64,000 nt of DNA from Paraburkholderia sp. (GTDB lineage: Bacteria; Pseudomonadota; Gammaproteobacteria; Burkholderiales; Burkholderiaceae). The notes under the pieces were generated by a model. That model did not search any database. It worked only from the letters and a program-made list of their open reading frames with translations, and was not told the DNA's origin. Shown piece after piece: positions 14,038-15,441 of this stretch. The DNA lies in NCBI RefSeq assembly GCF_035501035.1, contig NZ_DATJWR010000325.1, positions 10,841 to 74,840 of the forward strand. The letters run 5' to 3'. The translations under genes were made by a program, and so were the position numbers. Each line of letters starts with the position of its first letter. Positions within the stretch are counted from its first letter, which is position 1.

Positions 14038-14063
14038 GCAGCACGATCGGGCAAACAAAATGT

Positions 14064-14076
14064 ATGGTCAGCCTGA
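14064..14076. repeat. Sub-terminal inverted repeat at the downstream end of the IS
   Basis: ATGGTCAGCCTGA; 12/13 match to the reverse complement of 15387-15399. Confidence 0.85.
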
Positions 14077-14301
14077 TTTTTGCAACCTGACTTGTGACCT
14101 AAGATAGAAGGGCTTGCGCAAATGTATCCGGGCTCGAAGTGGGCGCGGATCGCGCCCGGCCCTCGATGAGAAGCCGCGCCCGGCAGTCCTCAAAAGCCCC
14201 TCAGTCTGCAGGACTGAATTTATTTCCAGGTTTTCTGCCGGGCCGTGAGCCGATTATCTTCATCACGGGTCAGTGGTCGCAAAAGCAGGCAGCCAAGTCG
14301 A
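14077..14301 (-). ncRNA. Candidate seekRNA/bridge-RNA region of the IS1111-type element
   Basis: About 225-nt non-coding segment between the natural transposase stop and the IR, where IS1111-group elements carry their guide RNA; contains an inverted pair at 14178-14186/14235-14243. Position-based inference only. Confidence 0.55.
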
Positions 14302-15328
14302 TCAGGCGATGGCCGGATGCGCCCGATACTCGCCGCCCCTGGCCAGGATCGCCCATGCGATTCTGGCCATTTTATTTGCCAGCGCGCAGGCGATGACGTT
14401 GCTGTGGCGGCGGCGCTGCAGGCCTTGCAGCCAGATCCCCAGGGCATCGGGTGCGGCGTTCGGCATAGCGCATCACGGCCCGCGCGCCCTGCACGAACAG
14501 GCATCGCAGTTGTTTGTCGCCGCGCTTGCTGATACCCAGCAACGTTGCCTTGCCTCCTGTCGAGTGCTGCCGTGGGACGAGTCCCAGCGAAGCGGCGAAA
14601 TCCCGTCCTCGCCGAAAACCATGCATGTCGCCCGCCATTGCGAGCAGGCTGCTGGCCGTCATCGGGCCGATACCGGGAATCGTCATCCGCCGCTGGGCCG
14701 CCTCGTCTTCAGCAAGCTGGCGCTTGAGTTCGCCTTCGAGCTGCGCGATCTCGTCGGTAAGCTGGCCATGGCGCCGATGCAGCCGCAGCAGGACTGAAAC
14801 GAGTCGCGGTGGTAACGCCCTGGCTGGATCGTCCAGCAAGGCTGGCAGCTGGGTGATGGCAAGTGTGCCCACGGGCAGGCCTACGCCGAATGCGAGCAGG
14901 AAGCTGTGAATCTGGTTCGCCGTGGCCGTACGCTCGGTCACCAGCGCCTGACGCACGCGATGCAGTGCGAGCAGCGTTTGCTGCTCGGGCGTCTTTACGG
15001 CCACGAAGCGCATGGACGGTCGCGACGCCGCTTCGCAGATCGCCTGGGCATCAGCGAAATCGGTCTTGTTGCCCTTCACGAAGGGGCGTACGAACTGCGG
15101 CGCGATCAGCCGCACCTCATGCCCGAACGTCTGGAGCTTGCGCGCAAGCCAGTGCGCGCCCGCGCAGGCTTCCATGGCAACTGTGCACGCGGGGTAGCTT
15201 ACAAGCGATGTCAGCAGTTGGGCGCGCGTGAACTTCTTGCGCCACACCTCATGACCGTGACTGTCGTGCGCGTGCAGGAAGAAGCAATGCTTGCCCAGAT
15301 CGATTCCGATCAACGTGACGGCGCCCCT
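14302..15328 (-). pseudogene. IS110 transposase with +1 frameshift and mutated start codon
   Basis: IGIDLGK, AMEAC, KTDFADA, QHSTGG motifs present. An extra C at ACCCGAT (about 14449-14451) shifts the conserved tail DALGIWLQGL...ACALANKMARIAWAIL (stop at 14302) out of frame. The position expected for ATG after GGAG reads AGG (15328-15326). Confidence 0.82.
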
Positions 15329-15347
15329 GATGATCTCCCGAAAGAGG

Positions 15348-15383
15348 AAATGGCCCGATCAGCGTAAGCCGATCGGGCCATTT
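15348..15383. other. 13-bp perfect hairpin in the IS leader
   Basis: AAATGGCCCGATC-N10-GATCGGGCCATTT between the IR and the transposase RBS. Confidence 0.75.
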
Positions 15384-15386
15384 CGG

Positions 15387-15399
15387 TCAGACTGACCAT
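15387..15399. repeat. Sub-terminal inverted repeat at the upstream end of the IS
   Basis: TCAGACTGACCAT; partner of 14064-14076. Confidence 0.85.
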
Positions 15400-15405
15400 C
15401 TCATT

Positions 15406-15441
15406 AGACCCGGCAGCCAGTCAAGGCTGCCGGGTCTTTTT
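15406..15441 (+). terminator. Intrinsic terminator (IS target site)
   Basis: AGACCCGGCAGCC-AGTCAA-GGCTGCCGGGTCT-TTTT: 13-bp stem with T-tract. Confidence 0.85.

What the first reader, a model, noticed from the sequence alone, without database searches (positions are those of the whole stretch)
14041..15441. IS1111-type element inserted into a bidirectional terminator, splitting the A-tract from the stem
Seen: joining the flanks gives CAAACAAAA(A)GACCCGGCAGCC-AGTCAA-GGCTGCCGGGTCTTTTTG, a bidirectional terminator between the convergent thioesterase and mlaA-like genes. The insertion removes the U-tract used by the minus-strand hpnN-mlaA transcript. Inferred: read-through would enter the IS in the sense direction of the transposase and guide-RNA region, and thioesterase mRNA would run antisense across the IS. 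This looks like terminator-stem targeting that could borrow host transcription.
Basis: partly seen in the sequence, partly recalled or inferred. Interest (0 to 1): 0.65.

Follow-up and report, generated by a model that had tools for sequence, protein, structure and literature searches.

The report
RNA-guided insertion sequence targeting transcription terminators
A degraded copy of an RNA-guided mobile element (IS1111 type) sits exactly between the stem and the T-run of a two-way transcription terminator, and its relatives land at the same kind of spot in at least 36 other places because their guide RNA spells "end of a GC stem plus T-run".

Summary
Window 14061-15406 (minus strand) is an IS1111-type element. 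It has DEDD and Transposase_20 domains, 13-bp subterminal inverted repeats with 6/7-nt and 3-nt end extensions, and a 240-nt non-coding region after the transposase gene. Joining its flanks rebuilds an A-tract, 13-bp stem and T-tract. Sister Paraburkholderia species carry an uninterrupted terminator of that kind between the same thioesterase and mlaA genes.

Terminator targeting is real and clade-wide. I collected 36 distinct left junctions; 27 follow a strong hairpin, and 21 of 22 known right flanks begin TT. The cause is visible in a two-loop seekRNA/bridge RNA that covariation supports. Its two guide blocks co-vary with each copy's flanks (0 of 5000 permutations reach the observed match).

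The "borrows host transcription" idea is not supported, though I could not test it directly. The element carries its own conserved 17-bp hairpin with a U-rich tail at its left end, and its ribosome-binding site is predicted to pair with the left repeat. A conserved terminator-like hairpin on the antisense strand lies inside the transposase gene. This particular copy has lost its start codon and carries a frameshift.

The closest named element is ISBcen2. I found no report of terminator targeting for this group. Interest is moderate.

The parts
14052..14060 (-). Right target half. CAAACAAAA on the + strand is the UUUUGUUUG tract of the mlaA-side terminator, now cut off from its stem. It is also the A-tract of the thioesterase-side terminator.
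   Evidence: Orthologous uninterrupted terminators. It pairs with the T guide at 6 Watson-Crick positions plus 1 G-U.
14061..15406 (-). The IS1111-type insertion sequence. It is 1345 bp, or 1346 bp if the T (A on the + strand) at 15406 is counted. This is a decayed copy.
   Evidence: Relatives align end to end, 1-1345. Pfam and NCBIfam matches. 62% amino-acid identity to ISBcen2.
14061..14076 (-). Right end: the 13-bp subterminal inverted repeat (14064-14076) plus the 3-nt extension ACA (14061-14063).
   Evidence: The 3-nt right extension is as described for the IS1111 family (PMC11187229).
14080..14085 (-). Conserved TTGCAA, a candidate -35 box. After circularisation it would lie 17 nt from CA|TAAT at the junction.
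   Evidence: Nearly invariant columns in alignment A1. The spacing is read from the sequence. This is an inference; no circle was observed.
14116..14177 (-). Donor-binding domain of the seekRNA/bridge RNA. The 5' strand of its internal loop contains UCUCAU, the complement of left-end ATGAGA. The 3' strand contains AUACAUUU, which equals the last 5 nt of the right end plus TTT.
   Evidence: Helices 5 and 6 are 100% paired, 2 pairs with compensatory changes. ATACA/ATAGA in the loop changes together with CATACA/CATAGA at the right end.
14178..14243 (-). Target-binding domain of the seekRNA. It has a 9-bp closing stem, the T guide (14217-14227, GGAAAUAAAUU), an apical hairpin (14202-14216) and the B guide (14191-14201, AGGGGCUUUUG).
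   Evidence: 7 of 9 closing-stem pairs show compensatory changes. The guides co-vary with the flanks, permutation 0/5000. Coordinates.
14302..15328 (-). Transposase gene remnant. The family ATG is AGG here (15326-15328). One extra C in the CCC run at 14449-14451 shifts the frame, so the open frame from TTG 15313 stops at 14372 and loses the last ~49 residues.
   Evidence: The metagenome contigs show no indel there.
14340..14369 (+). A 13-nt-arm hairpin (12 of 13 positions pair in this copy) inside the 3' end of the transposase gene. On the + strand, antisense to the element, it is followed by TTTTATTTGC, so it looks like a terminator for transcripts entering from the thioesterase side.
   Evidence: Compensatory changes between the window clade and the ISBcen2-like clade.
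15347..15384 (-). Left-end 17-bp hairpin GAAAUGGCCCGAUCGGC-UUAC-GCUGAUCGGGCCAUUUC, followed by a U-rich tail. It lies between the host stem and the transposase ribosome-binding site.
   Evidence: 97.7% of cells paired, 4 pairs with compensatory changes, slid controls 26-51%. Fold z = -8.1. A hairpin of different sequence plus T-run sits at the same place in L008, and none in 10 relatives with other targets.
15387..15406 (-). Left end: the 13-bp subterminal inverted repeat (15387-15399) plus the 6/7-nt extension (T)AATGAG.
   Evidence: A T precedes AATG(G/A)G in distant relatives whatever the flank.
15406..15442 (+). The host terminator stem-loop (13 bp, loop AGTCAA) with its intact TTTTTG tail for the + strand. 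On the - strand it is the left target half, ...GGCUGCCGGGUC(U).
   Evidence: It matches the B guide at 8 of 9 positions.

Best explanation
Window 14061-15406 is a decayed copy of an IS1111-type, RNA-guided insertion sequence. It belongs to the IS110 family and to an ISBcen2-related clade, and its transposase gene lies on the minus strand.

A DEDD recombinase, guided by the element's own seekRNA/bridge RNA, inserted it (presumably from a circular intermediate) exactly at the boundary between the 3' arm of an intrinsic-terminator stem and its T-tract. The site is the mlaA-facing side of the bidirectional terminator between the thioesterase and hpnN-mlaA genes.

The placement is programmed. The target loop of the RNA carries one guide (B) identical to the last 5-6 nt of a GC-rich stem arm plus TTTT. 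It carries a second guide (T) complementary to the T-tract and the bases after it. In a high-GC genome that sequence occurs almost only at intrinsic terminators, so the whole clade lands at gene-end terminators, always co-directional with the upstream gene.

Shown: the element's anatomy, the empty-site homologues, the clade-wide site preference, the RNA structure, and the guide-flank covariation.

Inferred: the element replaces what it breaks. Its left-end hairpin with a U-rich tail would probably stop or attenuate the host transcript about 60 nt inside the element. The antisense hairpin in the transposase 3' end would probably stop the convergent thioesterase transcript. Together these would make insertion nearly neutral and keep the transposase insulated from outside transcription. 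The transposase would then be expressed mainly from a promoter assembled at the circle junction.

This copy can no longer make transposase, although its ends and its guide RNA gene are intact.
For: Family features.

Empty-site homologues.

Site preference. There are 36 distinct left junctions. 27 have a 40-nt MFE of -14 kcal/mol or lower, against 27% of random positions (p = 4.5e-7). 34 of 36 end in YT. 21 of 22 known right flanks start TT. In 19 of the 20 sites with a confident upstream ORF, a co-directional gene stops 42-297 nt before the junction.

seekRNA structure. 99.4% of cells are paired, 10 pairs show compensatory changes, and slid controls give 25-42%.

Guide-target covariation. An element's guides match its own flanks at a mean of 14.67 of 18 positions, against 12.84 after permutation (0 of 5000 permutations as high). 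Exact examples are L003 (CTTACTTTC / TTCTTTG), L140 (TGTTTTTG) and L142 (TTTCATTT). One lineage occupies several different terminators: L001, L134, L144, L148, L160 and L171.

The order of the guides (T before B) and their overlap within the target are as published for IS1111 seekRNAs (PMC11187229).

Insulation features: left-end hairpin, pairing of the left repeat with the Shine-Dalgarno region, antisense hairpin.

Decay of this copy.
Against: No transcript data exist for this organism, so termination at the left-end hairpin and at 14340-14369 is prediction only.

In the window copy the left-end tail (CUCUUUC) is a weak U-tract, and the consensus scan did not call it a terminator.

The window's own guides match its site imperfectly: B at 8 of 9, T at 6 of 9 plus one G-U.

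No circular form or empty allele of this very locus was seen. The metagenome contigs hold only the occupied allele.

About a quarter of the junctions lack a strong hairpin.

The motif GG[CG]N?YTTTTT is itself preceded by a hairpin in 91% of its occurrences in control DNA. That control DNA repeats the orthologous thioesterase terminator many times. A separate structural requirement can therefore be neither shown nor excluded.
Confidence: 0.75

Rival explanations
1. Terminator targeting serves to capture host transcription. By removing the U-tract, the element lets the upstream gene's RNA polymerase read into the transposase gene and the guide RNA gene. Its activity would then be driven by, and coupled to, host gene expression.
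For: The element is always co-directional with the disrupted terminator and the upstream gene. After insertion the stem is followed by UAAUGAGAU instead of a U-run. The consensus scan reported no sigma-70-like promoter upstream of the transposase gene, in the window or in the intact copy L151, so an integrated copy needs some outside source of transcription to excise.
Against: A conserved 17-bp hairpin with a U-rich tail lies between the host stem and the gene. In this collection it is found only in the terminator-targeting clade. The left repeat is predicted to sequester the Shine-Dalgarno and pre-AUG region in any transcript that starts outside the element. The circle junction would create the element's own strong promoter (sequence reading). 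The copy in the window has no functional transposase gene.
Confidence: 0.2
2. Structure-assisted recognition. The recombinase also reads the folded terminator hairpin on the left side of the site, as proposed for the REP stem-loop of ISPpu10. Base pairing with the guides would then be necessary but not sufficient.
For: 75% of junctions have a strong hairpin ending at the crossover point, although the guides cover only its last 5-6 nt. The ISPpu10 preprint reports a target stem-loop that raises integration and lowers off-target insertion (10.64898/2026.03.19.712850).
Against: The guide-specified motif alone already predicts a hairpin in 91% of its occurrences in control DNA, so no extra requirement is needed to explain the data. 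Several insertions lie at sites with little structure: L006, L145, L150 and L157. One lineage was retargeted to a repeat where the main hairpin lies to the right of the site.
Confidence: 0.25
3. There is no targeting. Insertions are random, and only those in harmless spots after terminators survive selection.
For: Intergenic gene ends are tolerant places, and terminator-like sequences are enriched upstream of insertion sequences of several families (PMC13548323).
Against: The position is precise to the nucleotide (stem | T-run) and the orientation is the same at every junction collected. The guide blocks co-vary with the flanks. Published work shows that the family is RNA-guided (PMC11187229).
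Confidence: 0.02

Closest known systems
ISBcen2 (Burkholderia cenocepacia; listed in ISfinder in the IS1111 group; sequence taken from the supplement of PMC11187229)
   Same: 62% amino-acid identity to the window transposase over 292 residues. It is 81-82% identical to the L136/L140/L142 subgroup, which shares the window element's left end and subterminal repeat and also sits at terminators.
   Different: The window element falls below the 70% grouping threshold used in that paper, so it is a distinct element. I found no statement of ISBcen2's target in the papers I could search.
IS1111-family elements with a characterised seekRNA: ISEc11, ISPa11 (REP), ISKpn4 and ISPst6 (attC), IS4321 and IS5075 (inverted repeats of Tn21-type transposons)
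   Same: DEDD transposase, subterminal repeats with 7(6)-nt and 3-nt extensions, non-coding region downstream of the gene, and a seekRNA whose top-strand complement lies 5' of its bottom-strand complement, the two overlapping in the target.
   Different: Their targets are one specific repeated sequence each. Here the target is a low-complexity motif shared by many unrelated intrinsic terminators, with small lineage-specific variations. The element also carries a terminator-like hairpin at its left end.
IS621 and ISPpu10 bridge RNAs (IS110 type)
   Same: A two-loop RNA, one internal loop pairing with both strands of the target and the other with the donor ends. ISPpu10 targets have a GC-rich stem-loop just 5' of the crossover.
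   Different: In those elements the RNA is encoded upstream of the recombinase gene, the guide order is reversed, there are no subterminal repeats, and the targets are REP elements. Rfam gave no match to the RNA here.
Bacterial group IIC introns
   Same: Mobile elements typically located just downstream of transcription-terminator motifs, an inverted repeat followed by Ts (PMC1702495). This is the same genomic niche and the same logic of using a generic gene-end signal.
   Different: They are retroelements with a ribozyme and a reverse transcriptase, an unrelated mechanism. They insert after the motif, whereas this element splits the stem from the T-run.

Membership tests
IS1111 group of the IS110 family | Transposase with an N-terminal DEDD (RuvC-like) domain and a C-terminal Transposase_20 domain | tested here: met
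   PF01548 at 6.5e-18 and PF02371 at 4.1e-24. NF033542 'IS110 family RNA-guided transposase' at 301 bits against a cutoff of 140.
IS1111 group of the IS110 family | Subterminal inverted repeats of 11-13 bp, with terminal extensions of 7 (or 6) bp on the left and 3 bp on the right | tested here: met
   13-bp repeats, 12 of 13 complementary. Extensions are (T)AATGAG and ACA. The definition comes from PMC11187229.
IS1111 group of the IS110 family | A long non-coding region downstream of the transposase gene that encodes a seekRNA with the top-strand complement 5' of the bottom-strand complement | tested here: met
   A 240-nt region (14061-14301). Structure with 10 compensatory pairs. The T block precedes the B block, and both co-vary with the flanks. 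The RNA itself was not observed.
IS1111 group of the IS110 family | Site-specific insertion without a target duplication | tested here: met
   The joined flanks equal the uninterrupted terminator of sister species. One T is ambiguous, belonging either to the element or to a shared core.
IS1111 group of the IS110 family | Circular intermediate with a promoter assembled at the junction | not testable with these tools
   Sequence only: TTGCAA-17 nt-CA|TAAT would form if the junction holds one T.
Autonomous (active) insertion sequence | An intact transposase reading frame | tested here: not met
   The family ATG is AGG at 15326-15328, and a +1 C at 14449-14451 truncates the protein. The metagenome contigs agree with the window sequence.
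Intrinsic (Rho-independent) bidirectional terminator, as the target | A GC-rich stem-loop flanked by an A-tract and a T-tract, lying between the stop codons of convergent genes | tested here: met
   The stem lies 23 nt plus the element after the thioesterase stop, and 64 nt after the mlaA stop.
Intrinsic (Rho-independent) bidirectional terminator, as the target | Actual 3' ends of transcripts at the T-tract | not testable with these tools
   No RNA run holds this sequence.
Rfam RNA families | A match at gathering score | tested here: not met
   No family reached its gathering score anywhere in the window. The only weak hits near the element are chance-level.

The most novel reading that the evidence does not exclude
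This clade treats intrinsic terminators as a genome-wide class of safe landing sites, and it brings replacement terminators with it. The left-end hairpin would serve the co-directional host gene, and the hairpin embedded in the transposase 3' coding region would serve a convergent gene. Insertion would then swap a host terminator for element-borne ones. Left-end stubs and miniature derivatives left behind would keep working as the host gene's terminator.
Probability: 0.3. Interest if true: 0.7.

Novelty: new member of a known kind. Interest (0 to 1): 0.5.

Why it matters
It adds a natural example to the RNA-guided IS110/IS1111 recombinases in which the guides specify a generic functional signal, the end of a terminator stem plus its T-run, rather than one repeated sequence.

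The collection made here holds 21 guide-target pairs with small lineage-specific differences. That is a ready-made natural reprogramming series for working out the pairing rules of IS1111-type seekRNAs.

It also explains why terminator-like sequences are found just upstream of some insertion sequences.

For genome annotation it warns of two things. A hairpin beside such an element is half of a broken terminator. And short left-end stubs or miniature copies at gene ends are relics of these elements.

If the replacement-terminator idea holds, it would be a tidy case of a mobile element compensating for the damage it does.

Tried and rejected
- Rfam, E-value mode on 13000-17000 and gathering mode on the whole window: nothing real. 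A 15.7-bit hit to Coxiella CbSR2 spans the host stem and the left-end hairpin, far below the 300-bit threshold.
- An exact search for the reconstructed empty site in 185,579 species genomes hit only Roseibium marinum. On reading, that is an unrelated terminator that happens to share the A-tract and half a stem.
- No identical or near-identical second copy exists in the window. In the genome and metagenome collections the window's variant (GGTCAGTC) appears only at this same locus, in L164 and L170.
- Metagenome runs that hold the locus show only the occupied allele. No contig skips the element, so the exact empty allele of this population was not recovered.
- No RNA runs were available.
- A sigma-70-like promoter just upstream of the seekRNA (TTGCGA-18 nt-GATAAT) is not kept in most relatives, where the second hexamer is GATAAA, and it is absent from the scan of L151. 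I do not rely on it.
- My strict hairpin finder (at most one mismatch, no bulges) undercounts. Folding energies were used as a second measure.
- The motif control is inflated, because the control loci repeat the orthologous thioesterase terminator.
Stems differ from site to site, and only the last 5-6 nt plus the T-run are shared.
- The window seekRNA stem (GCCCGGCAG/CTGCCGGGC) resembles the host stem. I judge this to be chance, since relatives show no such relation.
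Full report
**What is at the coordinates**

Window 13558-14037 (+) encodes a hotdog-fold thioesterase. Windows 15501-16610 (-) and 16565-19192 (-) encode an MlaA-like lipoprotein and the hopanoid transporter HpnN. Squalene-hopene cyclase and HpnG lie upstream on the + strand.

Between the two convergent gene ends lies a 1345/1346-bp element, 14061-15405/6. Its minus-strand ORF matches Pfam DEDD_Tnp_IS110 and Transposase_20 and NCBIfam NF033542, "IS110 family RNA-guided transposase".

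It has 13-bp subterminal inverted repeats at 14064-14076 and 15387-15399. Beyond them are a 3-nt extension (ACA) at the end downstream of the gene and a 6/7-nt extension ((T)AATGAG) at the upstream end. About 240 nt of non-coding sequence follow the gene. These are the published hallmarks of the IS1111 group (PMC11187229).

Seven full-length relatives of 74-83% nucleotide identity align from base 1 to base 1345, which fixes the ends.

**The terminator**

Immediately right of the element on the + strand is a perfect 13-bp stem with a 6-nt loop and a TTTTTG tail, at 15406-15442. Immediately left is CAAACAAAA.

Joined, the flanks read as an A-tract, a stem-loop and a T-tract, which is a bidirectional terminator.

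I fetched the neighbourhood of the orthologous thioesterase gene from 80 species. The closest are Paraburkholderia (94-92% protein identity). In at least a dozen of them the same spacer is an uninterrupted A5-7 / 11-13-bp stem / T5-7 terminator. In at least seven of these the end of the mlaA-like gene follows.

So the reconstruction stands. The only uncertainty is whether the base at 15406 belongs to the element.

**Is the position accidental?**

No. I collected other copies in four ways:
- a protein search;
- an exact search for the conserved left end in species genomes;
- the same search in metagenomes;
- a BLAST search of plasmids.

This gave 36 distinct left junctions with at least 40 nt of flank.
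- In 27 of them (75%) the last 40 nt fold at -14 kcal/mol or better, against 27% of random positions in comparable DNA (Mann-Whitney p = 4.5e-7).
- 34 of 36 flanks end in YT.
- Of the 22 known right flanks, 21 begin TT and 20 have at least 5 T in the first 8 bases.
- Where a confident upstream ORF can be called, 19 of 20 are co-directional genes stopping 42-297 nt before the junction. One hairpin follows a tRNA gene (L131).

The orientation is invariant: host stem, then the element's left end, the transposase gene and the right end, then the T-run.

A Vogesella relative at 58% protein identity, with the same repeat core, does the same. Relatives at 52% identity or less, with different repeats, sit in unrelated sequences. 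Terminator targeting is therefore a property of this clade, not of the whole family.

**Why: the guide RNA**

I aligned the non-coding regions of 14 copies (A1). They fold into two domains with strong covariation: 99.4% of cells paired, 10 pairs with compensatory changes, and 25-42% paired when the partners are slid.

The first domain is window 14178-14243. It has a 9-bp stem, 7 pairs of which show compensatory changes. The stem closes an internal loop whose 5' strand (the T block, 14217-14227) and 3' strand (the B block, 14191-14201) flank a small apical hairpin.

These two blocks are the most variable parts of the region, and they track the flanks.
- The B block is identical to the left flank plus the first Ts. 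Examples are L003 CTTACTTTC against CACTTACT|TTCT, L011 GGCGCTTTT against GGCGCT|TTTT, and L004 GGGCCTTTT against GGGGCCT|TTTT.
- The T block is the reverse complement of the right flank. Examples are L140 TGTTTTTG, L142 TTTCATTT and L003 TTCTTTG, all exact.

Over 21 elements, the guides match their own flanks at a mean of 14.67 of 18 positions, against 12.84 after permuting the targets. None of 5000 permutations was as high.

The order (T before B) and the overlap of the two matches in the target are as published for IS1111 seekRNAs.

The second domain is window 14116-14177. Its internal loop has a 5' strand containing the complement of left-end ATGAGA. Its 3' strand reads ATACATTT, which is the last five bases of the right end plus TTT. 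In the L136 subgroup it reads ATAGATTT, matching that subgroup's right end CATAGA. I read this as the donor-binding loop, by analogy with bridge RNAs.

In the window, the B guide GGGGCUUUU meets GGGUCUUUU (8 of 9). The T guide AAAUAAA meets TTTGTTT with one G-U pair. So the copy sits at a near-cognate site.

One lineage (L001, L134, L144, L148, L160, L171) occupies several different terminators that share TGGCTT|TTTTTGTG-like sequences. This shows real multi-site use.

Another lineage (L003 and relatives) has guides reprogrammed to CTTACT|TTCTTTGC, a palindromic Paraburkholderia repeat.

**Sequence or structure?**

In 215 kb of control DNA the guide-type motif GG[CG]N?YTTTTT is preceded by a strong hairpin in 91% of its occurrences. 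That set is inflated by repeats of the orthologous terminator.

In these high-GC genomes the motif is practically a definition of an intrinsic terminator. The hairpin association therefore needs no separate structural recognition. An ISPpu10-like stem-loop "gate" cannot be excluded either.

**Consequences for transcription**

The U-tract of the hpnN-mlaA terminator is indeed gone. The stem is now followed by UAAUGAGAUGG.

But 21 nt further in lies a 17-bp hairpin (15347-15384) followed by a U-rich tail. The tail is CUCUUUC here, CUUUUC in most copies, and UUUUUCUUUUUG in L146.
- The hairpin is 97.7% paired over 18 copies, with 4 compensatory pairs and 26-51% pairing in slid controls.
- The Vogesella relative has a hairpin of different sequence plus UUUUCCUUUUUG at the same place.
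- Ten relatives that target other sequences have no hairpin-plus-U-run there.

The consensus fold also pairs the left repeat (GAUGGUC, CCUG) with the Shine-Dalgarno and pre-AUG region, and distant relatives do likewise. Any transcript that starts outside the element should therefore hide the ribosome-binding site.

The right end carries a conserved TTGCAA. After circularisation it would lie 17 nt from CA|TAAT, a good promoter that exists only in the circle. This is my reading of the sequence. It also argues that one T lies at the junction.

On the other strand, the thioesterase transcript now enters the element antisense. It meets a 13-nt-arm hairpin (12 of 13 positions pair) followed by UUUUAUUUGC at 14340-14369. 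That hairpin lies inside the transposase coding sequence and uses AGA and ATT codons. It is kept between the window clade (TGGCCAGAATCG/CGATTCTGGCCA) and the ISBcen2-like clade (TGGCGAGGAT/ATCCTCGCCA) by compensatory changes.

Taken together, the element looks insulated on both sides rather than built to capture read-through. This rests on sequence analysis only, because no RNA data exist for this organism.

**State of this copy**

Relative to seven relatives, the window copy has an extra C in the run at 14449-14451, which shifts the frame and removes the last ~49 residues. The family's ATG is AGG at 15326-15328. Intact relatives have open frames of 344-360 codons, and the annotated P. dioscoreae protein has 341 residues.

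Wetland-metagenome contigs that span the thioesterase gene, the element and mlaA show no indel at the frameshift. Two more metagenome samples hold the same occupied locus (L164 and L170).

The ends and the seekRNA gene look intact, so the copy could at most be mobilised in trans.

**Comparison with what is known**

The closest named element is ISBcen2. It is 62% identical to the window protein, and 81-82% identical to the L136/L140/L142 subgroup that also sits at terminators.

Published targets in this group are a short linear site, integron attC sites, REP elements and the inverted repeats of Tn21-type transposons.

A 2026 survey found terminator-like sequences enriched upstream of insertion sequences in general, without mentioning IS110.

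Group IIC introns occupy the same niche by an unrelated mechanism.

In eight full-text searches and the papers read, I found no statement that an IS1111/IS110 lineage is guided to intrinsic terminators. ISfinder itself could not be consulted.

**Verdict**

The terminator-targeting inference is confirmed and given a mechanism. The "borrowed transcription" idea is not supported but is untested.

The element is a new, decayed member of a known RNA-guided family. The clade-level target class and the element-borne hairpins are the interesting part.

Noticed in passing
L130 1798-1872 (Pseudomonas sp. B28): A ~75-nt miniature element. It consists of the clade's left end (AATGAGATGGTCAGCCTGACC), a short hairpin and a right-end-like GGCCAGGCTGGCCATGCA. 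It is inserted between a terminator stem (AGCCCCTCGAGAGAGGGGTTT) and TTTTTGTG, so it looks like a MITE derived from this clade in another genus.
   Followed up: partly
L128 (left end at 4341-4365, minus strand) and L146 (left end at 4866-4890, minus strand), both Paraburkholderia lacunae: Solo left-end stubs of 58-72 nt (subterminal repeat plus left-end hairpin) remain between a host terminator stem and a T-run, with no rest of the element within 4 kb. The stub's hairpin plus T-run itself resembles the clade's target, so guide-mediated or illegitimate deletion may have produced them.
   Followed up: partly
L003 2909-4270; also L133, L143, L155, L158, L162, L163, L166, L167, L172: One lineage has both guide blocks reprogrammed to CTTACT|TTCTTTGC, part of a palindromic Paraburkholderia repeat (..CACTTACTTTCTTTGCCGCCGCAAAGAAAG..) rather than a canonical terminator. 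An uninterrupted copy of the repeat is at L065 3097-3117.
   Followed up: partly
window 14340-14369: A hairpin lies inside the transposase coding sequence (motif MARI.WAILA). It uses AGA and ATT codons and is kept by compensatory changes between two subclades. On the antisense strand a T-run follows it.
   Followed up: partly
window 15326-15400, and the left ends of L009, L016, L030, L043 and others: The left subterminal repeat is complementary to the Shine-Dalgarno and start-codon region of the transposase mRNA. This holds in this clade and in distant IS1111 relatives, and suggests family-wide silencing of transcripts that start outside the element.
   Followed up: partly
L143 3265-3560: A rearranged copy. 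About 110 nt of left end are joined to the palindromic repeat and then to an inverted right end. I have no explanation for it.
   Followed up: no
window 15397 and 15414 (loose ends of metagenome contigs in runs X1 and X3): Contigs share the element's left-end hairpin region and then diverge. One continues into ...CTTTCACTAAAGCCCGCACGAATCCGTGCG, a different hairpin. Related elements at other hairpin sites therefore exist in the same wetland communities.
   Followed up: no
window 14178-14243 against 15406-15437: The closing stem of the window's target-binding domain (GCCCGGCAG/CTGCCGGGC) shares the 8-mer CCCGGCAG with the host terminator stem. Relatives show no such relation, so it is probably chance.
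   Followed up: partly
window 30076-30087 (minus strand): This is the only other match in the 64-kb window to a loose version of the clade's target motif (GGGTTTTTTTGT). It is unoccupied.
   Followed up: no
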